Source: a virus | Virus genome (UHGV): UHGV-0123675 | DNA length: 42,627 nt | Direction: 5' to 3' (one strand) | Shown here: in pieces, positions 8,376 through 33,128 of the stretch | Numbering within the stretch: the first letter of the stretch is position 1 | How the letters are laid out: every line of letters starts with the position of its first letter | Notes under the pieces: model-generated | Database searches by the model: none | The model's input: only the letters and a program-made list of their open reading frames with translations | Told to the model about the DNA's origin: nothing | Position numbers and translations under genes: made by a program

Positions 8376-8388
8376 TATGGAGAAAAGT

Positions 8389-9072
8389 ATGAGCCAATTA
8401 GCAACAACAGCATTAACCATGTCCAGCAGCGATATTGCTGAGCTGGTGGAATCACGACATGACCATGTTAAACGGTCCATTGAACGCCTGGCAGAGCGCG
8501 GTGTTATTGAACTCCCCCCAATGGGGGAAGTTAAAAATCACCTCAATCAGTCGGTATCGGTTTATCTGATAGGGAAGCGGGACAGTTATATCGTTGTCGC
8601 GCAGCTGTCGCCGGAGTTTACCGCGCGTCTGGTTGATCGCTGGCAGGAGCTTGAGCAGGCACAGCAGCAGACGATTCCTCAATCATTCTCTGAAGCCCTA
8701 CGTCTTGCAGCTGACCTTGCAGAACAAAAACAGCAGTTGACTAACGAACTGGCTGCCGCGGCGCCGAAGGTAGCGTTTGTTGATCGGTACTGTACAGCCA
8801 GTGGGTCAATGTCATTCCGCCAGGTGGCAAAACTGCTTAAGGCCAAAGAGCCAGATCTGCGGTTATTCCTCCTTGAGAACGACATCATGTATCGCCTTGG
8901 CGGAACGATGACCCCACGGCATCAGCATATTGATGCGGGCCGTTTTGAAGTGAAAACCGGCACATCCGTAACCTCAAATCATGCATTCAGCCAGGCACGT
9001 TTCACGGCGAAAGGCGTGCGCTGGATTGGTGGACTGTGGGCAGAACACATTGCCAGGGGGCAGGTCGCGTGA
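8389..9072 (+). CDS. Antirepressor-like protein (Rha N-terminal domain plus KilA-C/ANT-type C-terminal domain)
   Basis: SSDIAELVESRHDHVKRSIERL is Rha-like; C-terminal FRQVAKLL...region resembles antirepressor KilAC; GGAG RBS before ATG 8389. Confidence 0.75.
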   Translation: MSQLATTALTMSSSDIAELVESRHDHVKRSIERLAERGVIELPPMGEVKNHLNQSVSVYLIGKRDSYIVVAQLSPEFTARLVDRWQELEQAQQQTIPQSFSEALRLAADLAEQKQQLTNELAAAAPKVAFVDRYCTASGSMSFRQVAKLLKAKEPDLRLFLLENDIMYRLGGTMTPRHQHIDAGRFEVKTGTSVTSNHAFSQARFTAKGVRWIGGLWAEHIARGQVA

Positions 9073-10064: not shown

Positions 10065-10081
10065 GTGTATGGAGAAAAGTA

Positions 10082-10447
10082 ATGCGTGATATTCAGATGG
10101 TTTTAGATCGCTGGGGGGGCTGGGCATCAGCTGATAATTCTGGTGTTGACTATTCCCATATTGCCGCTGGCTTCAAGGGACTTTTACCGCAGACAAGCAA
10201 AACCAGATTGTCATGTACAGATGATGATGCGCTTATCATCGAAGGTTGCCTAGCACGACTAAAAAGCCGAAAGCCATATGAGCATTCGCTTCTTGTCGCT
10301 CATTACCTGTACGGTATCTCGAAGAGGAAGATAGCTAAAGCGCGAAAGAAGGATGAGAAACTGATACGAATTGAGATACAGATGGCTGAGGGGTTTATTG
10401 ATGGTTGCCTCTCGATGCTAGATATTCGGCTAGAAATGGATTTATAG
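10082..10447 (+). CDS. Q: Late-gene antitermination protein Q
   Basis: MRDIQMVLDRWGGWA...IAAGFKGL...DDDALIIEGCLARLK...AEGFIDGCLSMLD pattern typical of the ~120-aa Q family of enterobacterial lambdoid prophages; located before lysis region. Confidence 0.75.
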   Translation: MRDIQMVLDRWGGWASADNSGVDYSHIAAGFKGLLPQTSKTRLSCTDDDALIIEGCLARLKSRKPYEHSLLVAHYLYGISKRKIAKARKKDEKLIRIEIQMAEGFIDGCLSMLDIRLEMDL

Positions 10448-12182: not shown

Positions 12183-12278
12183 TAAGATAAATCAAAAAAT
12201 TCAAAAAAGCATTAACGCGGTCCGCATTTTCTAGATTACTGTGTTAAGAGTGGTCACTTAGACACGAACTTAAGCATT

Positions 12279-12306
12279 CCGCACCTCGCTTCGGCGGGTT
12301 TTTTTA
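12279..12306 (+). terminator. Putative rho-independent terminator (plus strand) in cargo intergenic region
   Basis: CCGCACCTCGCTTCGGCGGG hairpin followed by TTTTTTTAT. Confidence 0.4.
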
Positions 12307-16695: not shown

Positions 16696-16709
16696 AAAAC
16701 ACTGTGGTT

Positions 16710-17171: not shown

Positions 17172-17543
17172 TAGCTTAACTCCTTTATATAGACGTTGAA
17201 AAAAAGAATATCATTATAGTGGCGTTTTTTTTGTAATCAATATGTTAAATGTGGAACTACTGAAAATAGTACAATTAGGATGTTAATTGTTTATCAAGAT
17301 ATGGTGTCTATTCGTATCTATTTTATAGTTAATTAACTTCAGCCTCTATCATTTGGAATCGGGTATTTAAATATTAATTAGGGTGGGTCCTCCTGGCGAT
17401 TCTGAACACCGAGGGGGCGAGGACACGCGGAAAACGGCTGGTTTTTTGCATTTTATCGGCATCATCATCATTCCCTTAACTTGTTGATATTTCAGTCGTG
17501 AAATTATTCACGATGTCGAAATGGTTAAATATTGTTCATCATC

Positions 17544-18050: not shown

Positions 18051-18053
18051 GCC

Positions 18054-20171: not shown

Positions 20172-20383
20172 CGAAATCAGAAATTCAGCAGATGCTGGTA
20201 ACAGTACGCCAGGCATACCGTGATTCCCTGGACGGGAAAAGTGTGTCTTTTACGGGCGTAAATGGTCGCGCCATAACTAACCATGATCCCGTGGCGCTTC
20301 GCAGAGAGCTGGAATACTGGGAAAAACGCTGGGTTGCCGTGAACCGTCGCGGTGGATCTTTCAAACTCGCCAGATTTAATTAA
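20168..20383 (+). CDS. Head-tail joining protein (lambda gpW-like)
   Basis: 71-aa ORF, GTG start with GGAGG RBS, between terminase and portal as gpW in lambda. Confidence 0.65.
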   Translation: MTKSEIQQMLVTVRQAYRDSLDGKSVSFTGVNGRAITNHDPVALRRELEYWEKRWVAVNRRGGSFKLARFN

Positions 20384-20391
20384 GGTCTTCC

Positions 20392-21903
20392 ATGGGTATT
20401 TTCGACAGAGCACTTGGTGCAATTGCGCCAGGGTGGGCAGTCGCACGCGCCAGAAACAAAATGCTGTTGCAGGCATACGATGCGGCACAGCCTTCCAGGC
20501 TTAATAAAACGAAGCGCGAGAGCCGCGCGGCTGACACTGCTGTTGGTGTTGCAGGTGTATCACTGCGCGAGCAGGCGCGGGCGCTGGATGAAGACCATGA
20601 CATTGTAATTGGTCTGCTGGATAAGCTCGAGGAGCGGGTGATTGGTGCCCAGGGGATTCAGGTTGAACCGCAGCCGCTGGGGCTGAACGGAAAACTGCAT
20701 GAAGAATTTGCGGCAAAGATTTCCGCGCTCTGGTCCGAATGGTCAGTTCGCCCGGAAGTGACCGGGATGTTTACCCGCCCGGAAGCGGAACGGCTGGCGC
20801 TGCGTTCCGCATTGCGTGATGGTGAAATTTTTACCCAGATTGTGAGAGGGCCGGTTGCTGGTCTGACTCACTCGACCAGTGTGCCGTTTTCTCTGGAGTT
20901 ACTTGAGGCTGACTTTGTGCCGATGAACCTGAACAGCACCTCGGGGCAGCAGATCCGTCAGGGTATTATTGTGAATAACTGGGGACGTCCGACAGGCTAC
21001 CGGGTATATAAATTCCATCCGGCCAACATGACGCGTTTTAGCGCAGAACTGAAAACTGTTGCTGCTGAGAATATGCTGCATCTCGCACAGCGAAAACGTC
21101 TTCATCAGTTACGCGGGGTGAGTCTGTTACACGGCGTAATCCGCCGCCTTGGCGACATTAAGGATTACGAAGAGAGTGAGCGCGTGGCCGCAAGAATCGC
21201 TGCTGCGCTGGGCTTTTATATCAAGAGAGGTGATGCCGCTACTTTCCCGCAAGAAGATGACTGGAAGCCGTCAGAAAATAAATACCGCTATTTTGATATC
21301 GCGCCCGGGATGATTTTTGACGATCTGGCACCGGGCGAAGATCTGGGCATGGTCGAGTCCAATCGTCCGAATGTCCATCTTCATGAGTTTCGCAACGGGC
21401 AATTACGTGCTGTTGCCGCCGGAAGCCGGGGAAGCTATTCCAGCATTGCCCGTGACTACAATGGCACATACAGCGCCCAGCGCCAGGAACTGGTGGAAAG
21501 CTATGAAGGCTATAACGTACTGCAGCAATGGTTTGTTGGCCAGCACAGTCGCCCGGTATACCGCGCCTGGCTGGCGATGGCGCTGTTAACGACAGATATC
21601 CCACCGGATGTGGATCGAACAACCCTCTTTAATGCGACCTATCTTGGCCCGGTTATGCCATGGATTGACCCTGTAAAAGAGGCAATGGCATGGCGGGGAA
21701 TTGTGCGCGGTGGTGCGGGAACTGAAGCTGAATGGATCCGCGCCCGCGGGCAATCCCCCCAGGAGGTGAAGCGACAGCGTATGCGTGAAACCGAATTCAA
21801 CCGAGAAAACGGGCTGGTGTTCGACTCAGACGCCGCCAACGATAAAGGAGTGCTCCCTGATGCAGCAAATGATAAGCCCGCCCCGTCGCGGGACGATGAT
21901 TAA
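20392..21903 (+). CDS. Portal protein (lambda gpB family)
   Basis: 503-aa protein directly after terL/gpW; size and position of lambda-family portal. Confidence 0.8.
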   Translation: MGIFDRALGAIAPGWAVARARNKMLLQAYDAAQPSRLNKTKRESRAADTAVGVAGVSLREQARALDEDHDIVIGLLDKLEERVIGAQGIQVEPQPLGLNGKLHEEFAAKISALWSEWSVRPEVTGMFTRPEAERLALRSALRDGEIFTQIVRGPVAGLTHSTSVPFSLELLEADFVPMNLNSTSGQQIRQGIIVNNWGRPTGYRVYKFHPANMTRFSAELKTVAAENMLHLAQRKRLHQLRGVSLLHGVIRRLGDIKDYEESERVAARIAAALGFYIKRGDAATFPQEDDWKPSENKYRYFDIAPGMIFDDLAPGEDLGMVESNRPNVHLHEFRNGQLRAVAAGSRGSYSSIARDYNGTYSAQRQELVESYEGYNVLQQWFVGQHSRPVYRAWLAMALLTTDIPPDVDRTTLFNATYLGPVMPWIDPVKEAMAWRGIVRGGAGTEAEWIRARGQSPQEVKRQRMRETEFNRENGLVFDSDAANDKGVLPDAANDKPAPSRDDD

Positions 21904-23962
21904 TCCCCGTGCCAGTGTGGCTGGTATCGATGCAGCAAACGGTCAGTGCTGGTATGAGATACGCGCCCTGGCTGCAGGACGCGTGGAAATATTTCTCTAT
22001 GACGTGATCGGCGGCTGGGGGATTACCGCTCAGCAGTTCGTCTCCGACTGTAAGGAAGCCGGGGTGTTTGAGGCCAGCGCCGTCGATCTGCATATCCACA
22101 GCCCGGGCGGGGATGTGATGCAGGGATTTGCCATCTTTAACACCTTGTCCCGTCTGAAGGCGAAGCTGGATATCTGGGTGGACGGCGTGGCTGCCAGTAT
22201 GGCTTCAATGATTGTCTGCCTGCCCGGTGCCACGGTGCATATGCCGGAAAATGCCTGGCTGATGGTACACAAGCCGTGGGGCGGGATCGCCGGAGATTCC
22301 GATGATATGCGTGACTACGCTGCCTGGCTTGATCGTAATGAAGCGTTGATGCTCAGTGCCTACATGAACAAGACCGGGCTGGGGCAGGAAGAACTGGAGG
22401 CGATGTTGAAAGCTGAAACTTGGCTTAATGGCGCGGAGGCGGTGGAAAAAGGTTTCGCTGACACGCTTGAACCAGAACTGCAGGCCGCGGCCTGTGTGAA
22501 TCAAAATAAACTGAAGGATTACCAGAATATGCCAGAACAGATTAACAACCTTTTTGGGCCGCGCGCCGAAGCTCCTGTCAGTCAGCCGCAACCCGCACAA
22601 AATCCGGCTCCGCAGGCCGCAAATAACCCAACAACACCGCAGCCAGCCCAGCAACCGCTGGCGGGAAATATCGACATTACCGCGCTGGCCGCCCAGCTCC
22701 AGCAGCAGATGCAGGCGGCGAATACTGAACGAGTCAGCGCAGTTTCCGCTGTGTTTGATGCGTTTCCTGCTTTCGGCTCGCTGAAAGCAGAATGCATCAC
22801 GGATATTTCCTGCTCAGCGGAACAGGCCCGCACCAAATTGCTCAATGCGCTGGCGGCAGGGACGACCCCGAGTGCCGGACCGGGTGCAGTTCACATCCAT
22901 GCGGGTAACGGGAATATTGTTGGTGATTCCATTCGTGCGGCGGTGATGAACCGTGCGGGCTATGCGCAGGCAGAAAAAGATAACGCCTACAACGGGTATA
23001 CCCTGCGCGAACTGGCCCGCGCCTCGCTGGTGGATCGTGGTATCGGTATTTCTGGTGTCGGTACCGCACAGGCGATGGTTGGGCTGGCGTTCACCCACAG
23101 CAGCAGCGATTTCGGCAATATCCTGATGGATGTGGCGCATAAGGCGGCATTGCTTGGCTGGGATGAGGCCAGCGAAACATTCGAACAGTGGACCCGTAAA
23201 GGCACACTGACCGATTTCAAAACCGCGCACCGCGTTGGCCTGGAATCACTGGCATCGCTGCGTAAGGTTCGCGCCGGGGCGGAATATAAATATGTCACCA
23301 TTAAAGATCGCGGTGAGCCGATTGCACTGGCCACCTATGGTGAGCTTTTCAGCATTGACCGCCAGACTATCATCAACGACGACCTGGATATGCTGACGCG
23401 TATCCCGCAGGCAATGGGGCTTGCTGCGCGAGCCACCGTCGGCGATCTGGTCTGGGCTGTACTGACCAGCAATCCGAAAATGTCGGACGGTAAGCCGTTG
23501 TTCCACGCCGATCATGGCAACCTTGTTGCAGCCGATCTAAGTATTGAAGGGCTGGATATTGCACGTAAGGCAATGCTGCTGCAAAAATCCGGCGATCGTC
23601 GTCTGAATATTCGTCCGGCCTACATGCTGACGCCAGTCGCAATTGAGTCACGGGCAAACCAGCTGATTAAATCCGCCAGCGTACCGGGCGCAGACGCGAA
23701 CAGCGGGATCGTTAACCCGATCCAGAACTTTGTGACAGTGGCTTCTGAGGCCCGCCTGGATGACAGCAGCCCGACGGATTATTACCTGACTGCTGCGCAG
23801 GGGCGCGACACCATTGAAGTGGCCTATCTGGACGGTATCGACACGCCATATCTGGAACAGCAGCAGGGCTTCACTGTTGACGGTGCCGCTTTCAAGGTGC
23901 GCATTGATGCGGGTGTGGCCCCGCTTGACTGGCGCGGGCTGGTTAAAGTCACCAAAAAATAA
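21860..23962 (+). CDS. Fused prohead protease (ClpP/S14-like) - linker/scaffold - major capsid protein
   Basis: N-terminal domain with IHSPGGDV...MVHKPWGG ClpP-like Ser protease motifs; Pro/Gln/Ala-rich linker; C-terminal ~400 aa capsid-like domain; start chosen at ATG 21860 after AAAGGAG (longest ORF starts 21785). Confidence 0.8.
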   Translation: MQQMISPPRRGTMINPRASVAGIDAANGQCWYEIRALAAGRVEIFLYDVIGGWGITAQQFVSDCKEAGVFEASAVDLHIHSPGGDVMQGFAIFNTLSRLKAKLDIWVDGVAASMASMIVCLPGATVHMPENAWLMVHKPWGGIAGDSDDMRDYAAWLDRNEALMLSAYMNKTGLGQEELEAMLKAETWLNGAEAVEKGFADTLEPELQAAACVNQNKLKDYQNMPEQINNLFGPRAEAPVSQPQPAQNPAPQAANNPTTPQPAQQPLAGNIDITALAAQLQQQMQAANTERVSAVSAVFDAFPAFGSLKAECITDISCSAEQARTKLLNALAAGTTPSAGPGAVHIHAGNGNIVGDSIRAAVMNRAGYAQAEKDNAYNGYTLRELARASLVDRGIGISGVGTAQAMVGLAFTHSSSDFGNILMDVAHKAALLGWDEASETFEQWTRKGTLTDFKTAHRVGLESLASLRKVRAGAEYKYVTIKDRGEPIALATYGELFSIDRQTIINDDLDMLTRIPQAMGLAARATVGDLVWAVLTSNPKMSDGKPLFHADHGNLVAADLSIEGLDIARKAMLLQKSGDRRLNIRPAYMLTPVAIESRANQLIKSASVPGADANSGIVNPIQNFVTVASEARLDDSSPTDYYLTAAQGRDTIEVAYLDGIDTPYLEQQQGFTVDGAAFKVRIDAGVAPLDWRGLVKVTKK

Positions 23963-23964
23963 CG

Positions 23965-23988
23965 ACCGCCGCCTGGCGGTTTTTTTTA
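23965..23988 (+). terminator. Rho-independent terminator after capsid gene
   Basis: ACCGCC-gcct-GGCGGT stem followed by TTTTTTTT. Confidence 0.6.
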
Positions 23989-24035
23989 TCCCTGAAGGCG
24001 GCGCTGGTCGCCTTTTCCTTTTATGGAGAAAAAAC

Positions 24036-24371
24036 ATGGCGAATAACTATCAGCAGGACGGTACCACACTGGATTATCACAATGCGGGTGTTGATGCCGT
24101 TTCATCCGGTGCGCTGGTGGCGGTCGGCGGAATTGCCGGGGTGGCACACAGCGATATTCCAGCAGGCGAGTGGGGAACACTGCATATGGCCGGTGTTTTT
24201 GTGCTGCCTAAAGCGGCAGAAGAAATTGCGGCAGGCCAGAAGCTGTATCTGGCTGGCGGCAAGCTGACGGTGGCAAAAGGCGATGATGCAACGCCAAACC
24301 CGGTTGTTGGTTCCGCCTGGGGAGCAGCTGAGGCGGATGCTGCTGATGTTGCCGTCCGCCTGGGGTTCTGA
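24036..24371 (+). CDS. Small head-associated protein (DUF2190/decoration-like, tentative)
   Basis: 111-aa ORF with GGAG RBS directly after capsid gene terminator; Gly/Ala-rich. Confidence 0.45.
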   Translation: MANNYQQDGTTLDYHNAGVDAVSSGALVAVGGIAGVAHSDIPAGEWGTLHMAGVFVLPKAAEEIAAGQKLYLAGGKLTVAKGDDATPNPVVGSAWGAAEADAADVAVRLGF

Positions 24372-24727
24372 TGAGCCGGTTCCGGGAGCGTTTGGCTAAA
24401 GCAGATGCCCGGATTAACCGGGCGTTTGCCGAAGAAGTCCCTGCATGCCTGCAAACGGGTGAAGGCCCGCGTCTGGTGACCGTGATTTTTGAATCACCGG
24501 ATGCGCTGTCGGGTGTACCGGGGGGCGGGGAAATTCAGAACCATTCCCCGGCGTTCAGTGCAATGACTGCGGATATTTCCGGTCTCGAAAAACATGACGG
24601 TGTGGTTATCAATACTATCCCTTACCGGGTGACACATATCGGCGCGGATGAAGAAGGGCGGACCCGCGTCACGCTGGCATATGGGGAACCCGGCAAAACA
24701 CAGCCTCAGATCGATAAATGGAGCTGA
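24371..24727 (+). CDS. Putative head-tail connector / head completion protein
   Basis: 118-aa ORF in head-to-tail junction position; start overlaps upstream stop. Confidence 0.45.
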   Translation: MSRFRERLAKADARINRAFAEEVPACLQTGEGPRLVTVIFESPDALSGVPGGGEIQNHSPAFSAMTADISGLEKHDGVVINTIPYRVTHIGADEEGRTRVTLAYGEPGKTQPQIDKWS

Positions 24728-24728
24728 T

Positions 24729-25385
24729 ATGGCGCGGGAGTCTCGACTGCGGCGGGATTTACCCGTCGATATTGATGTGGATGTTATCTGGCGAATTGCG
24801 GACAGTATCGGTGCGACGCAAAAACAGTTCCGTGCAGCATACTCGCGCGCGCTCAGGCGTACTGCCGCCACGCTGCGAAAGAAAGCGATGGCGGATCTGA
24901 AAGACGGGCTGGCCCCACGCAGTATGGATCTGGTCCGGCGCCGTCTGCTGTCTTTTCGCCTGGACAGGGGATCGCAACTGGATAACTTCCGGCTCTGGTT
25001 CGGGCTGAATGCCATTAAGGTGAAAGACCTTAAAGGACGAATCAACGGGCGGCTGCGACCGCACCATACCCGGCGTGACCGCAACACGGGGCGTTTTATT
25101 AAAGCGCGCCGCCAGGCAGAAAACGCCGGATTTTCCCCGAAAGGTAATCTGCTGAGCGAACGGTCGTTTGAAAACGGGGAGGTGTCCCGTTCAAAACGGG
25201 ATAATCGCCGGACGGTGGTTATTCGCGATCCCCAGACCCGCCGGACACGCGAAGCAGAAATGGATATCTACGAACCGATGCTGAACTACATCGAAGACAA
25301 CGCATTTGCGGAAGCGATGGAGATTTTTATGCATCACTTTGAAACCGACATTCGCGGGCGCGTAAAAGCCCGTATTTCTGTCTGA
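24729..25385 (+). CDS. Putative neck / tail completion protein (Arg-rich, 218 aa)
   Basis: ORF between head and tail modules; function from position only. Confidence 0.4.
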   Translation: MARESRLRRDLPVDIDVDVIWRIADSIGATQKQFRAAYSRALRRTAATLRKKAMADLKDGLAPRSMDLVRRRLLSFRLDRGSQLDNFRLWFGLNAIKVKDLKGRINGRLRPHHTRRDRNTGRFIKARRQAENAGFSPKGNLLSERSFENGEVSRSKRDNRRTVVIRDPQTRRTREAEMDIYEPMLNYIEDNAFAEAMEIFMHHFETDIRGRVKARISV

Positions 25386-25396
25386 GGTAACGAACG

Positions 25397-25951
25397 ATGG
25401 CCGAGCCACTGTTGCTGGGGCGGTATCACGATGCTGTGACTGACGCATTAAAAAAAATCGGATGGGTGCGTGATGCCGGTGCGTATCCGGAAAGAAATGT
25501 TCCCCGCTTTTCGGGCCTGATCACGCCCGCGGTGTATTTCTCGATTAACAGCTGGGAACAGGGCGGAGGAAATGAGGGACAACTCAGCGTTAATTTAACC
25601 TGTGATCTCTTCGTGGTGGTGGATGCCGCCGGGTCGGGTGTGAGTCAGCCTGAAATCTTTGTCAGAACCGCTGCGGCCGATATTACCCAGTGGATTGACG
25701 GGCAGCAGTTTGGTCTGGGCCATATTGAGCCTGCGGTATTCACCACGGCTGAACGCGATGAGTTTGATCCGCGAATGGATGATTATCTGGTCTGGCGTAT
25801 TTCATTCACCCAGGCGGCTGCATTTGGTACTGACCCCTTTGCAAACAATGGCATGCCTCTGAAGCAGTCCTGGCTGGGTGCTGCACCTGATACGGGCCGT
25901 AATCACGTGGATAACTATCAGCTTATCTGGGAGGCTCAGCCCGATGAGTGA
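25397..25951 (+). CDS. Putative tail completion protein (184 aa)
   Basis: ORF immediately upstream of baseplate spike gene; function from position only. Confidence 0.4.
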   Translation: MAEPLLLGRYHDAVTDALKKIGWVRDAGAYPERNVPRFSGLITPAVYFSINSWEQGGGNEGQLSVNLTCDLFVVVDAAGSGVSQPEIFVRTAAADITQWIDGQQFGLGHIEPAVFTTAERDEFDPRMDDYLVWRISFTQAAAFGTDPFANNGMPLKQSWLGAAPDTGRNHVDNYQLIWEAQPDE

Positions 25952-26561
25952 TATCGCAGGCGACCTGCAGCGCAGACTGGCGAACCTTGTCCGGCGCGGC
26001 GTTATCCACTCCGTCAGGCACGATCGCATCCCAAAATGCCGGGTGGATTTGGGGGATATCATCACGACCTGGCTGCCGTTGTGCCAGGGCTTTTCCGGAA
26101 CTAACCGCGCTGATTCAAATCCTTATGCCGTGGGGGATGCGGTTACGGTCCTGTCCGAAGCCGGAGAGCTCAACAACGGACGGGTGTTTCCCGGCTGGAA
26201 CACGGGAAAGCTGCCAGTGCCGGAAGGAAGTGACAGCGAGCACATTACCCGTTACAGCGACGGGACCGAGATCCGTTATGACAGGAACGCGCATGCCCTG
26301 ACGATTACGCTGGCTGATGGTGGAACTTACAAAATTGTCGGTAAAGGCACGCTGGATGGTCCGGTTGAAATTACCGATACCCTGACAGTTCATGGCAAAA
26401 CCCAGATTAATGCCGACACGTCGGTTGCAGGGAATATCGGGGCGTCAAAGGAGATAACGGATAAATCCGGCAGCATGAGCAAGATACGTGAAGTCTTTAA
26501 CAACCACGATCACCGCGGCGACAGCGGCGGGCTCACCGATAAACCTAATCAGAAAATGTGA
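25944..26561 (+). CDS. Baseplate spike protein (P2 gpV-like)
   Basis: C-terminus HNHDHRGDSGGLTDKPN parallels P2 gpV HTHKHPGDSGGTTGSP; start ATG 25944 overlaps upstream stop. Confidence 0.7.
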   Translation: MSDIAGDLQRRLANLVRRGVIHSVRHDRIPKCRVDLGDIITTWLPLCQGFSGTNRADSNPYAVGDAVTVLSEAGELNNGRVFPGWNTGKLPVPEGSDSEHITRYSDGTEIRYDRNAHALTITLADGGTYKIVGKGTLDGPVEITDTLTVHGKTQINADTSVAGNIGASKEITDKSGSMSKIREVFNNHDHRGDSGGLTDKPNQKM

Positions 26562-26582
26562 CCTGCTGCGGCAGGTTTTTTT
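26562..26582 (+). terminator. Hairpin plus T-run (terminator/attenuator-like) upstream of sheath gene
   Basis: CCTGC-tgcg-GCAGG followed by TTTTTTT then GGAG-A-rich-ATG. Confidence 0.45.
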
Positions 26583-26599
26583 ATGCCTGGAGAAAAAAC

Positions 26600-28069
26600 A
26601 TGTCTCAGTTACATGGCGTTGAAACTATTGAACTCACCTCGGGTACGGTGGCGGTTACCACGATTCAGACCGCCATTATCGGCCTGGTGGGAACTGCACC
26701 TGATGCGTCGGGGGGAACAGCCGCATCGGGATCATCCGGTACACCCATTCTAGATAACGTTATCGACTTCACGGCAACCATTAAGGGGCGGGAAGGCAAT
26801 GTCATCAATGTCGCTGCGCTGGCCGGACAGCCGGCAGCCGAAAATCCTGCTGCGGTTGTGACGTCAGCAAGCTGGGATCCTGAATCGCTGACACTGAACA
26901 TCACGCTGGGTTGTGATGAGCACGGTGTTATCACGGCTAAACCTGGAGAAGTTGCTGAGGCTGTCGGTGGTGTTGATGGCGTAAAAATCAGTGCGAGCGG
27001 GCGCGGTGACGGGATTGTCCAGCCCTTCAGCCTGCAATTAGCGGGGGGTGAAGATGAACCCTTTCCACTCAATACGCCGGTGGCGGTCATCGGCACCACG
27101 CTGTTATCCCGCCTGGGTGAAAAAGGTACGCTTAAACAGGCACTGACTGATATTAACGATCAGCGTAATGCGCTGACGGTGGTGGTGCGTGTGGCGGATG
27201 AAAACGATGTGGCAAAACGACGCGCGGCGGTACTGAAGGGGATTGGCACCCTGTCATCAGCGAAATCTGTTACGACGTACCAGCCGCGTATTGTGATTGC
27301 GCCGGAATTCAGTGAGGACGATGCGGTTGGTAAGGGGCTGGAAACCGTGGCCGGGAAATTGCGCGCCGTTGCCTATGTTGACTGCGCCTCCGGTGCGACG
27401 CTGCAGGAAGTGGTACAGCGTCGCCAGTCCTATGGCGCACGAACTGAACTGTTGCGCCCGCGGGTCCAGGCGAGTGATGCAGATGGCCAGCTGGTTTATC
27501 GCCCTTACTCTGCATTTGCTGCCGGATTACGCGCCCGCATCGACTTTGAAAAAGGCTGGTGGTGGAGCAAGTCGAACCAGAACATCAATAACATCCTCGG
27601 TGTTGAGCAGATCGATGAATTTATCCTCGGGGATGAGAACTGCGATGCAAACCTGCTCAACATGCAGAACGTGTCCACCATTATCCGCCGGGCGGGTTTT
27701 AAACACTGGGGGAACCGCCTGTGTGCAACCAATCCTCAGTGGCGTTTTGAATCTGTACGCCGTACAGCTGATGTTATTGAGGACAGCATTCAGGAAACCA
27801 TGCTGGAGTATGTTGACCGCCCACTGGACCGGGAAAATGCGGATGACATTATCGGTACCATCAATGCCTATATGCGGCAACTGGTCGGTCTTGGCGCCAT
27901 ATTCGGTGGGCGGGCCTGGCTGGATGAAGAACTGAACACCGCGGAAACCATGGCGTCGGGTGTCCTGTACATCAACTATGACTTTGGTCCGAAATCGCCG
28001 ACTGAACTTATCAGCCTGCGCGTCCGGGTGAACAATAACTATGCGCTTGAGGAGATGCTTGCAGCATGA
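26600..28069 (+). CDS. Contractile tail sheath protein (P2 FI-like)
   Basis: ~490-aa protein followed directly by FII-like tube gene; start ATG 26600 after GGAGAAAAAAC. Confidence 0.85.
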   Translation: MSQLHGVETIELTSGTVAVTTIQTAIIGLVGTAPDASGGTAASGSSGTPILDNVIDFTATIKGREGNVINVAALAGQPAAENPAAVVTSASWDPESLTLNITLGCDEHGVITAKPGEVAEAVGGVDGVKISASGRGDGIVQPFSLQLAGGEDEPFPLNTPVAVIGTTLLSRLGEKGTLKQALTDINDQRNALTVVVRVADENDVAKRRAAVLKGIGTLSSAKSVTTYQPRIVIAPEFSEDDAVGKGLETVAGKLRAVAYVDCASGATLQEVVQRRQSYGARTELLRPRVQASDADGQLVYRPYSAFAAGLRARIDFEKGWWWSKSNQNINNILGVEQIDEFILGDENCDANLLNMQNVSTIIRRAGFKHWGNRLCATNPQWRFESVRRTADVIEDSIQETMLEYVDRPLDRENADDIIGTINAYMRQLVGLGAIFGGRAWLDEELNTAETMASGVLYINYDFGPKSPTELISLRVRVNNNYALEEMLAA

Positions 28070-28572
28070 GCGATAAAAACACACTACGCGTCTGGACCTT
28101 CTTCCGGCAGGGGATCCGTATTCAGGGGGCGCATGAATTTACGCCGCCGTCTCTGGCTATTGTTAAAACGGATTTGCGTACCGGCGCACAGGATGCGCCA
28201 ACTCCGGTTGATGACGGCATGGAAGCACTGACCTGTCAGGTTAAATTTTATGGGATAGATACGGATATGCTGGCCAGCTTTGGTTTTGTCAGCGGCAGTC
28301 GTTCACGCTTTACGGCTTATCAGGGCTATCTCGGTAACGGCACTGCGCGCGGTACGGTTGAGGAAATCGAGGGGTTTGTACAGACCGTCACGCCGGATGC
28401 GCGCAGTAAGGACACGCTTTCCGAAAATGCCGTGACGGTTGATATTGCCGTCAGCTACTACCGTCAGTCACTGGACGGGCGCGAACTGTTTGCCATCGAC
28501 ACAGAGCGTTTCGCCCGCCGGGTGAATGGCGTTGATGTGCTTTCTGGCCTGGCTGCCAAAGTGCGTCTCTGA
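28066..28572 (+). CDS. Tail tube protein (P2 FII-like)
   Basis: C-terminus YYRQSLDGRELFAIDTERFARRVNGVDVL parallels P2 FII YFRLTMDGKELVEIDTINMIEKVNGVDRL. Confidence 0.85.
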   Translation: MSDKNTLRVWTFFRQGIRIQGAHEFTPPSLAIVKTDLRTGAQDAPTPVDDGMEALTCQVKFYGIDTDMLASFGFVSGSRSRFTAYQGYLGNGTARGTVEEIEGFVQTVTPDARSKDTLSENAVTVDIAVSYYRQSLDGRELFAIDTERFARRVNGVDVLSGLAAKVRL

Positions 28573-28596
28573 TTTTACTGTTATCCCACCACTGTA

Positions 28597-28619
28597 ACGG
28601 CCTGCGGGCCGTTTTTTTA
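28597..28619 (+). terminator. Hairpin plus T-run after tail tube gene
   Basis: ACGGCC-tgcg-GGCCGT followed by TTTTTTTAT. Confidence 0.5.
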
Positions 28620-28630
28620 TGGAGCATCCT

Positions 28631-28930
28631 ATGAGCTTTCCTGGTGAAACCCGCGTTATAAAACTGTATTCCCCCGTATCACTTGATAGCGGGGTTGTGA
28701 TCGATGAAGTCACCATGCGTGAACCGCTGGTTCGCGATCGCATCACTCATGCCAAAGACCGCGGCAACGAAGAAGAGAAAGAAGCCCGCATGATTGCGCT
28801 GCTGTGCAATCTCAGTGAACAGGATCTCTGGCTGATGACGGCGGCAGATTATTCACAGCTGCTGGATGCCTTTAACGTTTTTATGCTCCCGCCCGCGAAG
28901 CGACCGAAGGCGGGCTCCTCCGGGCAATAA
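28631..28930 (+). CDS. Tail assembly chaperone (P2 gpE-like)
   Basis: ~100-aa ORF between tube and tape measure; start ATG 28631 after GGAG (ORF track starts at 28619). Confidence 0.65.
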   Translation: MSFPGETRVIKLYSPVSLDSGVVIDEVTMREPLVRDRITHAKDRGNEEEKEARMIALLCNLSEQDLWLMTAADYSQLLDAFNVFMLPPAKRPKAGSSGQ

Positions 28931-29058
28931 GATTTCTGGGGCGGCGGCTGCATTTTCCGATGGCGGAATACCTTGATATGCCGTTCAGCACTTTCTCTGA
29001 TTTTTTGACTGACGAACTGGAGACGATAAACCGTGGGCGGAATAAGCCAGAACCTTAA
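28631..29058 (+). other. Predicted -1 programmed frameshift product of the tail chaperone (E+E'-like), slip at the T-run near 28878-28884
   Basis: The -1 frame is open from 28876 to a TAA at 29056-29058 and opens exactly at the GTTTTTA run inside the chaperone gene; extension has no start codon of its own. Confidence 0.45.
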
Positions 29059-30958
29059 GGCCGTGATTACCTTTGGCGGGAACCTGGATAATTCATGGAA
29101 ACGATCTGCAGATGGTCTGCAAAAAAGCCTGAAAGATGTCGGAAAGCAGTCTGAACGACTGACAAAAGACCAGACCAGACTGGCAGCAGAAATCAAACGC
29201 GCCAAACTGGCCGGTGAAAGCCTGGGGGATTTGAAGCGCCGCTATACCGATGTTTCCAGGGAAATCCGCAAAACGGAGGCGGAGCAGCAGAAACTGAATG
29301 TACAGATGCAAAAAGCACAGCGCATTCAGGCATTCAAAGGAGCCGGTAAAGGTCTGTTCCGGCGCGGTCTGGGGATCGCCGGGCAGGTGGGCGGGATGTT
29401 TGGATCCGGGTTGGCTATTGGCGGTGGCGGTGTGGTGGCTTCAGCTCTTGGCACACTGATAGCGCCAGCTGCCACCAATGCTGAAACGGCAACCCGCACT
29501 AATGTCGCAAAAAGTTACGGCGTGGACGTGGCCACGTTTAATGCCTGGGATTCTCTGGCGAAGCAGTACGACATGAATGCGGAAAACATTGGCGATCTCT
29601 TTGAAGAGTATCTGCACAAATCCGGAGAGTATAAACAGAACGGTAAGCAGGGCTCGCTGCAGGATGCGTTTGAAACGCTCGGGTTCAAAGCGGGGGATTT
29701 TGCCGGGCTCAACGATATGGCGCAGTTCGACAAAATTGTTGAACGGGCGCTCAGCCTTCAGGACGAGTCAAAAGCCTCCTTCGCACTGGATTCTCTTTTT
29801 GGCGGGGAAGCGAGCAAACTGCTGATGCTTATCAAGCAGTCTGGCCGGAGCTACCGCGACCTGATGGACGAACAGCGGCGCTACAACCTTGTGACCAAAG
29901 AGGGGGCAGATGGGGCGGTTGCAGGGAATCAGGCTATCAATAATCTCCGCACTGTTTTCTCTTCTGCGGTTGCTGAAATTTCCGGGCAACTGGGAAATGA
30001 GCTTGCGCCTGATATCCGTAATCTGACGAATGATCTTGCCGACTGGTTCAAAGGTGGCGGGATCAAACGCATTGTGACTTTCCTGCGAAACGACCTTTAT
30101 CCCGGCGTTCTGTCGTTCGGGCAGGGGGTGGTTTTTGTCGGCAAAATTATTTACGCGCTGGCTAAAAAACTGTCCTGGTTGCTGCCGGATGAACGAAATG
30201 ATCAGCGCGATGTACTGAAAACACTGGCTGGTAATGGAATGAATATGGCTCGCCTCCGAGCTGAGCAGACAGGCCAGGGAGAATGGTTTACGCAGCAACT
30301 GGCAATTCATCCTGACTTGCCAGAAAAAGTAAAAGAGTCATGGAATGATACCCGCGGATGGTTCGGTCCTGACAGCGACGATGAGGCGTTTAACAAATCG
30401 CTTGATAAATACCTGTCACCGGAAGGCGGCGATTCGCTTTTAAACTGGAATGCGGCGCTACAGCAAAACAAGGACCATGTAGCGCAAACCGTTAAAGAGG
30501 ACCCGGAAAGCAGTGCCGAAGCCAGGGATAATTACGCGCATGAGCCGGTAACGTTTGCCAGTCAGTGGAAAAGAGAGCCATCAGGGCTGACGGACAGCCT
30601 GGGGGAAGGAGAAAGCGCCCGCGCAGGGGATAAGTATCCGAATGATCTCCTTCTTCCCGTCGTGCAGCAGGACAGGAATGTTACGACAACAAACAGATCA
30701 CCTGCTGAGCCGGTCATTTTGAAAGACGAGAGCACGGGTGGTTACTGGGAAAGCCTGCTTCAAAAAATGGATGTACTGGATAAGCAGCCGCCATCACGGC
30801 AGATAACTGATAACCGCAAATTTGAATACCACTTCGAAATTAATGCTGCGCCGGGACAGGATGAGAAAGCCATTGCCGATGAAGTGACCACGGTGACGAA
30901 AAACAATTCTGCTTTTAATGGTGATAACAGCCTTCTGGATGGGGGACTTGTCTGGTGA
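29033..30958 (+). CDS. Tail tape measure protein
   Basis: 641-aa Gly/Ala-rich, coiled-coil-prone protein after chaperone gene; GTG start. Confidence 0.85.
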   Translation: MGGISQNLKAVITFGGNLDNSWKRSADGLQKSLKDVGKQSERLTKDQTRLAAEIKRAKLAGESLGDLKRRYTDVSREIRKTEAEQQKLNVQMQKAQRIQAFKGAGKGLFRRGLGIAGQVGGMFGSGLAIGGGGVVASALGTLIAPAATNAETATRTNVAKSYGVDVATFNAWDSLAKQYDMNAENIGDLFEEYLHKSGEYKQNGKQGSLQDAFETLGFKAGDFAGLNDMAQFDKIVERALSLQDESKASFALDSLFGGEASKLLMLIKQSGRSYRDLMDEQRRYNLVTKEGADGAVAGNQAINNLRTVFSSAVAEISGQLGNELAPDIRNLTNDLADWFKGGGIKRIVTFLRNDLYPGVLSFGQGVVFVGKIIYALAKKLSWLLPDERNDQRDVLKTLAGNGMNMARLRAEQTGQGEWFTQQLAIHPDLPEKVKESWNDTRGWFGPDSDDEAFNKSLDKYLSPEGGDSLLNWNAALQQNKDHVAQTVKEDPESSAEARDNYAHEPVTFASQWKREPSGLTDSLGEGESARAGDKYPNDLLLPVVQQDRNVTTTNRSPAEPVILKDESTGGYWESLLQKMDVLDKQPPSRQITDNRKFEYHFEINAAPGQDEKAIADEVTTVTKNNSAFNGDNSLLDGGLVW

Positions 30959-31425
30959 GTGAAATTATCCCGATATTTGAAGATTCCGGCCAGCGCAGTG
31001 CAGGCGCATTACGGGGTGGGCAGGAAGCCCGCGTCATGATGATGCTGGGGAATTTCGCCTTTTCGATTGATACAGCGGCTTATCATCAGCTCACCCGTGA
31101 GGCCAGCTGGCGCTGGAGTGAACAGGAACGCATCGGCAAACAGGACCTTCTTCAGTACACCGGAAAGCCCGGGCGTACTGTCAGGCTCGAAGGGCAGTCT
31201 CACGCCTTTTTCCGTAAAGGGGTGGAAGGGGTGAATGATTTATTTGATCTTGCCGAACAGGCGAAACCGCAGCAGCTTGTCAGCGGAGAGGGCGATGTAC
31301 TGGGGTGGTGGGTGGTGACCGACTTTTCAGACACGACGAGTAAGTTTTTACCGGGTGGTGGTCACCGAAATAAAAACTGGACGATGACGCTAAAACACTA
31401 TGCCGACGATCTATCAAACCCGTGA
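30955..31425 (+). CDS. Tail protein (P2 gpU-like)
   Basis: Internal MMMLGNFAFS... resembles P2 gpU N-terminus (MMMLG); true start may be ATG 31036. Confidence 0.7.
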   Translation: MSEIIPIFEDSGQRSAGALRGGQEARVMMMLGNFAFSIDTAAYHQLTREASWRWSEQERIGKQDLLQYTGKPGRTVRLEGQSHAFFRKGVEGVNDLFDLAEQAKPQQLVSGEGDVLGWWVVTDFSDTTSKFLPGGGHRNKNWTMTLKHYADDLSNP

Positions 31426-31615
31426 CGGAGATGTACTGGATGCAATTTGTGCCGTGCATTACGGTACTGAAAATCTTTCAGACTCAGTGACTCAGGTTCT
31501 TGAAGCCAATCAGGGGCTGGCGGATAAGGGGGCTATGTATCCTTCCGGCCTGTATATCACACTGCCGGATCTGGTGACGCCTGTAGCGGAATCGCCATTC
31601 AGTTTATGGGATTGA
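31400..31615 (+). CDS. Tail protein X (P2 gpX-like, LysM-like)
   Basis: GDVLDAICAVHYG...VLEANQGLA resembles P2 gpX GDTLDAICVRYYG...VLAANPGLA. Confidence 0.75.
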   Translation: MPTIYQTRDGDVLDAICAVHYGTENLSDSVTQVLEANQGLADKGAMYPSGLYITLPDLVTPVAESPFSLWD

Positions 31616-31616
31616 T

Positions 31617-32735: not shown

Positions 32736-32774
32736 CCCTCCCGCCATCCGGCGACTCAGCAACGGAATTTAATC

Positions 32775-33128
32775 ATGAACGGTGTAAACAACCGGACCGG
32801 AAAACGCCTGTCCGGCGTCGCCCATTTGCGGCAGTCCGTCAGCGACATACTGACCACTCCCATCGGGAGCCGGGTTCTTGTTCGGGACTATGGCAGTGAT
32901 CTGTTTTCGCTGGTGGATAACCCCCGGGATGATTTGACCCGACTACAAATAATCGCTGCGTCTGCGACCGCACTGGCCCGGTGGGAGACGCGGCTGAAGG
33001 TAACACGTGTGCTTGTTTCCTTTCCTGAAGGGGAGTCCGGCTGTGTGCTGGATATCGAGGGGATCAACAAGGAAACCAATTTACCTGTCAGAACGGGAGA
33101 CATAACGATTTATGGCAAGCAGCTATGA
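32775..33128 (+). CDS. Baseplate assembly protein W (gp25/gpW-like)
   Basis: 117-aa protein with DILTTPIGSRVLVRDYGSDLFSLVDNP motif characteristic of gpW/gp25 family. Confidence 0.8.
   Translation: MNGVNNRTGKRLSGVAHLRQSVSDILTTPIGSRVLVRDYGSDLFSLVDNPRDDLTRLQIIAASATALARWETRLKVTRVLVSFPEGESGCVLDIEGINKETNLPVRTGDITIYGKQL

What the first reader, a model, noticed from the sequence alone, without database searches (positions are those of the whole stretch)
23960..28635. Recurrent hairpin plus T7 run plus TATGGAG-A-rich-ATG cassette before highly expressed structural genes
Three intergenic sites share the same build: a short GC hairpin with a 4-nt loop, TTTTTTTAT, then GGAG and an A-rich spacer leading to the start codon. 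They precede the decoration-like gene (23965-24038), the sheath gene (26562-26602) and the chaperone gene (28597-28633). The same TATGGAGAAAAG start context recurs at 8375-8391 and 10068-10084. They could be partial terminators, attenuators tuning stoichiometry, or RNA-stability elements.
Basis: seen in the sequence. Interest (0 to 1): 0.35.

Follow-up and report, generated by a model that had tools for sequence, protein, structure and literature searches.

The report
Conserved terminator hairpins inside phage late operon
Three short hairpin-plus-T-run elements between the structural genes of a temperate phage are real, conserved, ordinary Rho-independent-type terminators inside a late operon that is probably read by a terminator-resistant (Q-modified) polymerase; this kind of element is already known, but its role is still unsettled.

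Summary
A strict hairpin+T-run scan finds three hits in the 42.6 kb window, exactly the three reported sites (0.14 expected per strand). They fill three of the four true non-coding gaps over 15 nt in the head/tail operon.

All three are conserved in about 80 related phage contigs and in Hafnia phage yong2 (69% DNA identity). Stems, T-runs and GGAG are kept while loops and spacers drift. Site 1 shows strong covariation.

The "cassette" is two ordinary things joined: a terminator that ends one translationally coupled gene block, and the strong Shine-Dalgarno site the next block needs for fresh initiation.

The phage encodes a Q antiterminator (PF06530). It also has a promoter-proximal hairpin+T7 upstream of the late genes, probably tR'. 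The internal terminators are therefore probably read through during lytic growth.

Most likely they stop polymerase that Q has not modified, and afterwards serve as RNA 3' barriers. Residual attenuation is expected mainly at site 3.

Distant phages carry the same layout after the capsid gene and around sheath-tube. P2-like phages keep the post-tube hairpin without a U-tract.

Verdict: a new member of a known kind. Intra-operon terminators in lambdoid late operons have been noted, with "roles not known". Interest is modest.

The parts
23964..23987 (+). Site 1, hairpin 1 plus T8. It starts 1 nt after the stop codon (23960-62) of the protease-scaffold-major capsid fusion gene.
   Evidence: -11.9 kcal/mol, z -3.2. 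Covariation CG<->UA at one pair across relatives. Present in all 40 distinct variants from 71 loci.
23994..24022 (+). Site 1, hairpin 2 (9 bp, loop GCUG) plus a TTTTCCTTTT tail, directly 5' of the decoration-gene SD.
   Evidence: -14.2 kcal/mol. 6 of 8 pairs show changes on both sides across relatives. A second hairpin lies at the same place in CP-1639, Gifsy-2 and mEp460.
24025..24038 (+). SD GGAG, spacer AAAAAAC and ATG of the head-decoration gene (24036-24371).
   Evidence: phrog_122 head decoration and PF09956 Phage_cement_2.
26560..26582 (+). Site 2 hairpin (7 bp, loop UGCG) plus T7. Its 5' arm overlaps the stop codon TGA 26559-61 of the upstream gene (25944-26561).
   Evidence: -11.6 kcal/mol. 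The stem is unchanged in 23 of 25 distinct variants from 79 loci, with at least 10 loop variants. Hafnia yong2 has a compensatory U-A -> C-G change. 1-nt indels in relatives exclude coding from the in-frame GTG at 26558.
26589..26602 (+). SD GGAG, spacer AAAAAAC and ATG of the tail sheath gene (26600-28069).
   Evidence: phrog_23, PF04984 and PF17482.
28596..28618 (+). Site 3 hairpin (7 bp, loop UGCG) plus T7. It lies 23 nt after the tube gene stop (28570-72).
   Evidence: -12.7 kcal/mol. The stem is unchanged in 42 of 45 distinct variants from 81 loci, although the upstream spacer is hypervariable. The exact 20-mer sits in tube->chaperone context in 79 of 80 loci fetched from 109 IMG/VR matches.
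28621..28633 (+). SD GGAG, spacer CATCCT and ATG of the tail assembly chaperone gene (28631-28930).
   Evidence: PF10109 Phage_TAC_7 and phrog_166.
12285..12305 (+). Fourth hairpin (5 pairs incl. one G-U, loop UUCG) plus T7. Candidate tR', the promoter-proximal terminator of the late operon.
   Evidence: -7.2 kcal/mol, z -1.0, so weak on its own. mEp390 and SfIV have a hairpin+T-run at the homologous place upstream of their holin genes.
12208..12255 (+). Conserved non-coding block, the candidate late promoter / Q-loading region (PR'-like).
   Evidence: Nearly identical in mEp390 and SfIV, where it lies in the non-coding region upstream of the holin gene. No strong sigma-70 consensus was called, so this assignment is an inference.
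10082..10447 (+). Q-family late antiterminator gene.
   Evidence: PF06530 Phage_antitermQ, full length, 178.7 bits against a cutoff of 26, E 4e-53. phrog_79, E 1.4e-44.
8376..8391 (+). TATGGAGAAAAGTATG: ribosome-binding site of the ant-like gene. It has no T-run and is not part of the terminator set.
10068..10084 (+). TATGGAGAAAAGTAATG: ribosome-binding site of the Q gene. It has no hairpin or T-run.

Best explanation
The three elements are genuine Rho-independent-type terminators: a 7-bp GC-rich stem, a 4-nt loop and U7-8. They sit in three of the four true non-coding gaps over 15 nt in the head/tail late operon of a temperate phage with a lambda-like head and a P2-like contractile tail. The nearest named relative is Citrobacter phage Chris1.

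Each element closes a block of overlapping, translationally coupled genes. The GGAG plus 6-7 nt spacer after it is the strong ribosome-binding site the next block needs for fresh initiation.

The phage makes a Q antiterminator and has a promoter-proximal hairpin+T7 (tR'-like) ahead of the late genes. The proposed mechanism has three steps.

1. RNA polymerase that Q has not modified stops at these sites. This covers the prophage state, moron promoters and spurious starts, so structural genes stay silent. (Inferred.)
2. Q-modified polymerase reads through all of them during lytic growth. (Inferred from the known properties of Q.)
3. In the read-through mRNA the hairpins persist as 3'-exonuclease barriers at the ends of the capsid and sheath-tube segments. 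(Inferred by analogy.)

Any residual termination should be strongest at site 3, which lies 13-27 nt from the stop codon. Sites 1 and 2 abut or overlap the stop codon, where a terminating ribosome represses hairpin formation.

Shown here: the structure, its non-randomness, purifying selection on stem, U-tract and SD, covariation, and the presence of Q.
For: - **Non-randomness.** There are only 3 strict hits in 42.6 kb, all in late-operon gaps, against 0.14 expected per strand.
- **Selection.** Hairpins and T-runs are kept in 71, 79 and 81 related loci while loops and spacers vary. At site 1, 97.5% of cells are paired, 7 of 14 pairs change on both sides, and 0 of 500 shuffles reach this. Hafnia yong2 keeps all three, with a compensatory change at site 2.
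- **Antitermination context.** Q is PF06530 at 178.7 bits. A conserved block plus hairpin/T-run lies upstream of the late genes here and in mEp390 and SfIV.
- **No internal promoters.** Promoter-like sites are below the chance count (11 against 18.8) in 20-40 kb.
- **Gene layout.** Other late-gene junctions overlap or have at most 11 nt, with weak or no SD. The three genes after the hairpins have GGAG at -10/-11.
- **Depth of conservation.** The same layout is found in distant phages: the two-hairpin capsid gap in CP-1639, Gifsy-2 and mEp460, with one hairpin in F10, and hairpin+T-run before sheath and after tube in Valp1, PPpW-3 and ep3.
- **Literature.** The phage L genome paper reports an intra-late-operon terminator after the procapsid module and offers the same two roles, partial termination or stopping non-antiterminated transcription, with 'roles not known' (10.1101/2020.10.05.325894). 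Terminators a few bp after a stop codon are repressed by the ribosome (PMC4824070). In a Gram-positive plasmid antitermination system (conAn), an extraordinarily long stem was the feature that made a terminator resistant to processive antitermination (PMC10325885).
Against: - There are no transcript data. Termination, read-through and RNA protection are all inferred.
- The PR' promoter was not identified by consensus. The tR' hairpin alone is weak (z -1.0).
- If Q read-through is near complete, selection for perfect U-tracts must come from the non-lytic state, which is untested.
- P2-like phages, for which I know of no processive antitermination, keep a hairpin without a U-tract at the tube/chaperone junction. 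This suggests the hairpin itself, not termination, may be the ancestral function.
- Stems at sites 2 and 3 are almost invariant, so they give little covariation evidence of their own.
Confidence: 0.55

Rival explanations
1. The elements are partial terminators (attenuators). They leak during lytic growth and set a stepwise transcript gradient, so upstream genes such as capsid and tube get more mRNA than downstream ones.
For: Site 1 follows the capsid gene and site 3 follows the tube gene and precedes low-copy tail genes. In phage LUZ7 more than 60% of mapped termination sites have average efficiency below 50%, with stepwise read-through, and inefficient terminators balance expression in T7 (PMC9163698). 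Site 3 lies 13-27 nt from the stop codon in all relatives, so it is free to act.
Against: - Site 2 lies directly before the sheath gene, which I expect to be the most abundant tail protein (my own knowledge).
- Site 1 lies before the decoration gene, expected to be about equimolar with capsid.
- Four strong terminators in series would starve the baseplate and fibre genes unless overridden, and the phage encodes Q.
- Sites 1 and 2 abut or overlap the stop codon, where ribosomes repress termination (PMC4824070).
Confidence: 0.2
2. The elements are purely post-transcriptional RNA-stability elements. The hairpins block 3'-5' exonucleases, or protect a 5' end after RNase E cleavage, giving the capsid and sheath-tube mRNA segments longer half-lives. 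On this view the U-tract is secondary.
For: A GC-rich hairpin of unrelated sequence sits at the tube->E junction in all 9 sampled Peduoviridae, and 8 of them have no uninterrupted T-run (phage D14A has a short interrupted TTTCTCT). The second hairpin at site 1 lacks a T-run in CP-1639, Gifsy-2 and mEp460. One paper's abstract describes investigating the link between terminator strength and upstream mRNA stability (PMC11696848 abstract).
Against: The U-tract is itself under strong constraint. It is T6-8 in all site 1 variants and T7-8 in all site 2 variants, and at least T5 in most site 3 variants. A mere exonuclease barrier does not need this.
Confidence: 0.17
3. The element is a translation-initiation device. 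The unstructured U-tract directly 5' of the SD acts as an A/U-rich standby site or enhancer that binds ribosomal protein S1, and the hairpin keeps it exposed. This would boost fresh initiation on decoration, sheath and chaperone.
For: The T-run ends 2-7 nt before GGAG at sites 2 and 3, and the T-rich tail ends 2 nt before GGAG at site 1. [quoted passage not shown] From my own memory, not checked here because the paper is not held, Zhang & Deutscher 1992 reported a hairpin plus U8 upstream of the E. coli rnd SD that is needed for translation.
Against: At site 1 the perfect T8 is 37 nt from the SD, with another hairpin in between. In relatives of site 3 the distance and sequence between the T-run and the SD vary. 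This idea does not explain the conserved hairpins, nor the P2-like hairpins that lack U-tracts. It is at best an added benefit.
Confidence: 0.07
4. The elements are chance palindromes, or a small mobile or recombination-linker repeat, with no expression function.
For: The site 3 stem sequence is invariant amid hypervariable flanks. This could look like a repeat element or a conserved linker for module exchange.
Against: Shuffles give 0.14 strict hits per strand against 3 observed. Of 80 loci fetched from the 109 IMG/VR matches to the exact 20-mer, 79 are in the same tube->chaperone context, so it is not dispersed. Covariation at site 1 shows selection on structure.
Confidence: 0.01

Closest known systems
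Intra-operon Rho-independent terminators in lambdoid late operons, such as the predicted terminator after the procapsid gene module of P22-like phage L.
   Same: It is a hairpin+U-tract inside a late operon thought to have a single promoter and to depend on a Q-type antiterminator, placed at the end of the capsid gene block. The same two candidate roles were proposed there (10.1101/2020.10.05.325894).
   Different: There are three such sites here (four hairpins), including a pair that brackets sheath-tube in a P2-like tail module. Conservation and covariation are shown here across about 80 relatives. The phage L case was only an in-silico prediction.
Lambda-type tR' and Q-mediated processive antitermination.
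   Same: There is a Q-family protein (PF06530). A short hairpin+T7 lies downstream of a conserved non-coding block and upstream of the lysis and structural genes.
   Different: This Q family is a different Pfam entry from lambda Q as I recall it (my own knowledge, not tested here). The promoter, Q-binding element and pause site were not identified, and two minus-strand genes lie between Q and the block.
T7 T-phi and other leaky terminators after phage major capsid genes.
   Same: A terminator directly follows the capsid gene, and read-through is needed for downstream structural genes (PMC9163698 cites T7 for this).
   Different: T7 uses its own RNA polymerase and has no antiterminator. Here host polymerase plus Q is expected, and the gene just downstream (decoration) is needed in capsid-like amounts.
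Intercistronic mRNA-stabilising hairpins, such as the REP hairpins of malE-malF and the puf operon hairpins (my own knowledge).
   Same: A stable GC hairpin sits between cistrons with very different required outputs. The P2-like version lacks a U-tract, as these do.
   Different: The elements here carry a perfect, conserved U-tract. They are single short hairpins, not REP repeats. No decay data exist.
The hairpin annotated in the phage P2 record as 'putative transcription attenuator; O operon' (8399-8417).
   Same: It is an intra-operon hairpin in a late structural operon of a phage with a related tail module.
   Different: The P2 hairpin has no T-run and lies inside a coding overlap region. 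P2 late operons are annotated with activator-dependent promoters, not antitermination.

Membership tests
Rho-independent (intrinsic) terminator | A GC-rich stem of about 5-11 bp with a short (3-8 nt) loop. | tested here: met
   The stems are 7 bp with 4-5 GC pairs and 4-nt loops at all three sites, folding at -11.6 to -12.7 kcal/mol with z -2.6 to -3.2.
Rho-independent (intrinsic) terminator | An uninterrupted U-tract of about 6-8 nt directly 3' of the stem. | tested here: met
   The tracts are T8, T7 and T7. They are conserved as T6-8 in all site 1 and site 2 variants and as at least T5 in most site 3 variants.
Rho-independent (intrinsic) terminator | Lies on the sense strand, downstream of a stop codon, in non-coding sequence. 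| tested here: met
   All three are in gaps of the + strand late operon. Indels in relatives exclude coding at site 2.
Rho-independent (intrinsic) terminator | The structure is maintained in evolution (compensatory changes). | tested here: met
   Site 1 has 7 of 14 pairs with double changes, and 0 of 500 shuffles reach this. Site 2 has one compensatory pair in Hafnia yong2. The site 3 stem is invariant, which is uninformative for covariation but shows strong purifying selection.
Rho-independent (intrinsic) terminator | Produces transcript 3' ends / releases RNA polymerase. | not testable with these tools
   This needs Term-seq, in vitro transcription or reporter assays.
Q-dependent lambdoid late operon (processive antitermination) | Encodes a Q-family antiterminator at the end of the early-right region. 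| tested here: met
   PF06530 at 178.7 bits and phrog_79 at E 1.4e-44, for window 10082-10447, after the rusA, ant-like and HNH genes.
Q-dependent lambdoid late operon (processive antitermination) | A late promoter with a Q-loading site, followed by a promoter-proximal terminator (tR') upstream of the lysis genes. | tested here: inconclusive
   A conserved 45-nt block plus hairpin/T-run lies upstream of the late genes in the window, mEp390 and SfIV. No consensus promoter was called and no Q-binding element was defined.
Q-dependent lambdoid late operon (processive antitermination) | Read-through of downstream terminators only when Q is present. | not testable with these tools
   This needs a comparison with and without Q.
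Transcription attenuator with alternative (antiterminator) structure | A conserved, mutually exclusive alternative fold or leader peptide upstream of the terminator. | tested here: not met
   The site 2 hairpin overlaps the stop codon. The site 3 upstream spacer is hypervariable in sequence and length. An alternative fold at site 1 appears in only some variants.
Intercistronic mRNA-stabilising hairpin | A stable hairpin between cistrons, conserved regardless of any U-tract. | tested here: met
   A hairpin at the tube->chaperone junction is present in all 9 sampled Peduoviridae, 8 of them without an uninterrupted T-run, and in the window lineage.
Intercistronic mRNA-stabilising hairpin | The upstream segment has a longer half-life that depends on the hairpin. 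| not testable with these tools
   This needs decay measurements.
RNase III processing site (T7-type) | A long (about 20 bp or more) double-stranded stem, often with an internal loop. | tested here: not met
   The stems are only 7-9 bp.
Any curated Rfam RNA family | A covariance-model match at the gathering score. | tested here: not met
   There are no matches anywhere in the window.

The most novel reading that the evidence does not exclude
Hairpins at fixed gene junctions form an old, widely shared RNA-level way of dividing phage structural operons. The junctions are after the major capsid gene, before the sheath gene and after the tube gene.

On this reading the hairpin is the ancestral working part, setting segment stability. 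A full U-tract is added in phages that possess processive antitermination, which turns the hairpins into checkpoints only Q-modified polymerase can pass. The distance from the stop codon tunes how far a terminating ribosome overrides each one: overlapping at site 2, 1-4 nt at site 1, and 13-27 nt at site 3.

This would give a concrete, testable answer to the stated open question of what intra-operon terminators in late operons are for.
Probability: 0.2. Interest if true: 0.55.

Novelty: new member of a known kind. Interest (0 to 1): 0.3.

Why it matters
Intra-operon terminators in antitermination-dependent phage late operons are often predicted, but their roles are explicitly described as unknown (phage L genome paper).

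This locus offers a clean test set. It has three strong terminators, conserved and in part covarying, at defined junctions with different stop-codon distances. It also has a recognisable Q gene. A natural comparison group exists in P2-like phages, which keep the post-tube hairpin without a U-tract.

The practical uses are modest. The elements help set correct gene starts: ATG 26600, not GTG 26558, and ATG 28631, not 28619. They are also compact terminator-plus-RBS junctions that could be reused in phage engineering. Nothing here overturns current understanding.

Tried and rejected
- **Rfam.** A search of the whole window at gathering scores found nothing. No tRNA or tmRNA genes were found.
- **Coding reading of site 2.** An in-frame GTG at 26558 could extend the sheath ORF through the hairpin. 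This is rejected because relatives carry 1-nt indels and Hafnia yong2 has a TAA stop there.
- **Mobile or dispersed repeat.** Rejected: of 80 loci fetched from the 109 IMG/VR matches to the exact site 3 20-mer, 79 are in the tube->chaperone context.
- **Attenuator with alternative folds.** One variant of site 1 has an alternative fold of similar energy, but it is not kept in other variants.
- **Internal promoters in the late operon.** Promoter-like hits are below the chance count and lie inside genes.
- **Fourth late-operon gap (32736-32774).** It holds only a weak 4-bp hairpin with no T-run (z -0.6), so it is not part of the set.
- **vB_EcoM-569R10.** This distant tube relative (a 19.9 kb record) lacks both sheath/tube hairpins, so the feature is not universal.
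- **Diversity of P2-like phages.** The search for related loci with P2 FII returned only near-identical P2 copies and was useless for this purpose. I sampled Peduoviridae from the annotated phage collection instead.
- **Literature on the P2 FII-E hairpin.** The search found nothing. Zhang & Deutscher 1992 is not held, so its content is cited from memory only.

Full report
**What is in the sequence**

The three sites exist as described.

- Site 1: the stop codon TAA (23960-62) of the 688-aa protease-scaffold-capsid fusion gene is followed after one base by GACCGCC-GCCT-GGCGGTT and eight T (23964-23987). A second 9-bp hairpin follows (23994-24015) with a TTTTCCTTTT tail. Then come GGAG (24025) and the ATG of the decoration gene (24036).
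- Site 2: the stop TGA (26559-61) of the upstream gene overlaps the hairpin GACCTGC-TGCG-GCAGGTT (26560-77). Next come T7, ATGCCT, GGAG, AAAAAAC and the sheath ATG (26600).
- Site 3: 23 nt after the tube stop (28570-72) comes AACGGCC-TGCG-GGCCGTT (28596-28613), then T7, AT, GGAG, CATCCT and the chaperone ATG (28631).

The hairpins fold at -11.6 to -12.7 kcal/mol, with z-scores of -2.6 to -3.2 against shuffles.

**Is it more than chance?**

I ran a strict scan of my own: stem at least 6 bp, at least 4 GC pairs, loop 3-6, and at least 6 T in the next 7 bases. It returns exactly these three sites on the + strand of the 42.6 kb window and none on the - strand. Dinucleotide shuffles give 0.14 per strand. 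TTTTTTTAT occurs 10 times against 0.93 expected.

From the ORF map and start contexts, the head/tail operon from 17532 to 36934 has five gaps longer than 15 nt, of 73, 38, 58, 102 and 39 nt.

- The 102-nt gap (28931-29032) lies where P2 carries the E+E' frameshift extension and where the Hafnia yong2 record annotates a small ORF.
- The 39-nt gap (32736-74) has only a weak 4-bp hairpin with no T-run.
- The three terminator-like elements occupy the other three gaps.

**Gene identities**

| Window coordinates | Assignment | Family evidence |
|---|---|---|
| 24036-24371 | head decoration | phrog_122, PF09956 |
| 26600-28069 | tail sheath | phrog_23, PF04984, PF17482 |
| 28066-28572 | tail tube | PF04985 |
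| 28631-28930 | tail assembly chaperone | PF10109 |
| 29033-30958 | probable tape measure | phrog_3654 (function unknown) E 4.5e-228; weaker tape-measure families, best E 1.6e-16 |

The window is 97.7% identical to Citrobacter phage Chris1 over this stretch.

**The "cassette" is a composite**

Most late genes overlap their neighbour or are at most 11 nt apart, and have weak or no Shine-Dalgarno sequence. That is the pattern of translational coupling. The three genes that follow a gap have GGAG at -10/-11.

The recurrent GGAG plus spacer is therefore the strong ribosome-binding site needed for fresh initiation after a non-coding gap. The two extra TATGGAGAAAAG sites (8376 and 10068) are the ribosome-binding sites of the ant-like and Q genes. 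They have no T-run.

**Conservation in close relatives**

A tube-protein search of IMG/VR gave 80 loci with 88-100% tube identity. I extracted the three gaps from these loci, Chris1 and Hafnia phage yong2.

| Site | Loci | Distinct variants |
|---|---|---|
| 1 | 71 | 40 |
| 2 | 79 | 25 |
| 3 | 81 | 45 |

Nearly every variant folds into the same hairpin followed by a T-run. Position by position, the stems, T-runs and GGAG sit at 90-100% consensus. Loops, the spacer between SD and ATG, and the spacer upstream of the site 3 hairpin sit at 30-60%.

At site 1, an alignment of 32 variants gives these results:
- 97.5% of cells are paired.
- 7 of 14 pairs change on both sides.
- The covariation score is 0.427 against 0.221 in shuffles, with 0 of 500 shuffles reaching it.
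- All slid controls fall far below.

At site 2 the stem is unchanged in 23 of 25 variants, while the loop takes at least 10 forms. Hafnia yong2, at 69% DNA identity, has a compensatory U-A to C-G change. One-base indels at site 2 rule out a coding reading from the in-frame GTG at 26558.

At site 3 the exact 20-mer gave 109 IMG/VR matches. Of the 80 loci fetched, 79 have a tube homologue upstream and a chaperone downstream, with tube identity down to 68%. The element is therefore specific to this lineage and under strong purifying selection. It is not a dispersed repeat.

**Conservation in distant phages**

The gap after the homologous capsid gene in CP-1639, Gifsy-2 and mEp460 has the same two-hairpin layout: a first hairpin plus T7, and a second hairpin next to the SD. 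Pseudomonas phage F10 has one hairpin with a weak T-tail.

Myoviruses whose tube protein is only about 30% identical carry a hairpin+T-run after the tube gene. These are Vibrio Valp1, Pseudomonas PPpW-3, E. coli ep3 and Salmonella PT1. The first three also carry one before the sheath gene, and the PT1 record starts at its sheath gene. One relative, vB_EcoM-569R10, has neither.

In P2 and eight other Peduoviridae genera the tube-to-E junction always holds a GC-rich hairpin of unrelated sequence. Eight of the nine have no uninterrupted T-run.

**Regulatory context**

- The window encodes a full-length Q antiterminator (10082-10447): PF06530 at 178.7 bits and phrog_79.
- After two minus-strand genes comes a 45-nt non-coding block (12208-12255). 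It is almost identical in mEp390 and SfIV, where it lies just upstream of the holin gene.
- In all three phages this block is followed by a hairpin+T-run. In the window that is the fourth hairpin+T7AT (12285-12305).
- This is the expected shape of a late promoter with its tR'. I could not call a consensus promoter, and the hairpin alone is weak.
- Promoter-like matches inside the structural region are fewer than chance.

**How it most likely works**

The first step is shown. These are terminator-type structures under selection for stem, U-tract and position.

The remaining steps are inferred.

1. Four strong terminators in series would starve the distal tail genes. Q-modified polymerase must therefore read through them. 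Q is known for this property (my own knowledge).
2. The stems are short (7-9 bp). In a Gram-positive plasmid antitermination system, an extraordinarily long stem was the feature that made a terminator resistant (PMC10325885).
3. Without Q, the elements would stop any polymerase entering the structural genes.
4. In read-through RNA, the hairpins remain at the 3' ends of the capsid and sheath-tube segments, where they could block exonucleases.
5. The distance from the stop codon differs consistently between sites. Site 2 overlaps the stop in all 79 loci, site 1 lies 1-4 nt after it, and site 3 lies 13-27 nt after it.
6. A terminator a few base pairs after a gene is almost fully repressed by the terminating ribosome (PMC4824070). 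Residual termination should therefore fall mainly at site 3.
7. Site 3 is also the only site where lower downstream expression fits the expected protein copy numbers.

**Rival explanations**

- **Simple attenuators.** This fits site 3, but not site 2 (before sheath) or site 1 (before decoration).
- **Pure RNA-stability elements.** The U-less hairpins of P2-like phages support this. The strict U-tract conservation here argues against it as the whole story.
- **An S1-binding U-rich enhancer** (PMC2176067). This may add to translation but does not explain the hairpins.
- **Chance or a mobile repeat.** Both are excluded.

**Comparison with what is known**

The phage L genome paper reports a predicted terminator inside the late operon after the procapsid module. 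[quoted passage not shown] Long-read transcriptomics of phage LUZ7 shows that leaky, sequential terminators are common. The P2 record itself annotates an intra-operon hairpin as a putative attenuator.

The finding is therefore a new, well-conserved member of a known kind, not a new mechanism. The cross-family pattern is the only part that goes beyond routine annotation. It rests on small samples and no transcript data.

Noticed in passing
window 13584-14321 and 14325-14573 (+): A Dam-like DNA methyltransferase is split into two adjacent ORFs. phrog_6952 profile positions 2-76 match the end of the first ORF and positions 80-158 match the second. It is a pseudogene, or a stop codon that is read through.
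   Followed up: no
window 12208-12255 (+); L181 (mEp390) about 910-960; L182 (SfIV) about 905-955: A 45-nt non-coding block (CATTAACGCGGTCCGCATTTTCTAGATTACTGTGTTAAGAGTGGT) is almost identical in three otherwise different lambdoid phages. It always lies upstream of the late genes and is followed by a hairpin+T-run. It is probably the late promoter and Q-loading region for this Q family.
   Followed up: partly
window 10467-12182 (-): Two minus-strand genes (169 and 393 aa) lie between Q and the presumed late promoter. The 393-aa protein has no Pfam match, and the 169-aa protein matches only a PHROG of unknown function. mEp390 and SfIV also have a minus-strand gene just upstream of the conserved block. 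A bidirectional-looking terminator lies at 10452-10483.
   Followed up: no
window 16600-17530: An AT-rich insert with a minus-strand 152-aa ORF (16710-17171, no family match) lies between the spanin and small-terminase genes. It is flanked by + strand terminator-like hairpins at 16662-16688 and 17427-17449. The late transcript has to cross it, which is further reason to expect antitermination.
   Followed up: no
L177 (CP-1639) 1287-1379; L178 (Gifsy-2) 1364-1459; L180 (mEp460) 1364-1455; window 23980-23997: The capsid-to-next-gene gap shares not only the two-hairpin layout but also the short motif TTTTTTT(A/G)T.CCTGAA between the hairpins in distant lambdoid phages. Site 2 of the window has the similar TTTTTTTATGCCTGGAG. 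I have no explanation for this.
   Followed up: partly
L088 (P2) 19381-19401 and eight other Peduoviridae loci, L169-L176: The tube (FII) to E junction always carries a GC-rich hairpin of unrelated sequence. Eight of nine have no uninterrupted T-run (Shewanella M16-3 has one). The P2 record does not annotate it.
   Followed up: partly
window 28619-28621 and 26558-26560: In-frame upstream start codons (ATG inside TATGGAG at site 3; GTG overlapping the stop at site 2) make ORF finders over-extend the chaperone and sheath genes. Comparison with relatives supports ATG 28631 and ATG 26600.
   Followed up: yes
window 6673-7992 (+): A 439-aa protein matches both a DNA methyltransferase family (phrog_111) and a PAPS-reductase-like family (phrog_33262). 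It is an unusual fusion-like gene in the replication / nin-like region.
   Followed up: no
L253 5704-5723: This is the only fetched IMG/VR locus where the exact site 3 hairpin 20-mer occurs outside a tube->chaperone context. There it follows an unrelated gene and is followed by AGGAAAGATTCATG. It is probably convergent.
   Followed up: no
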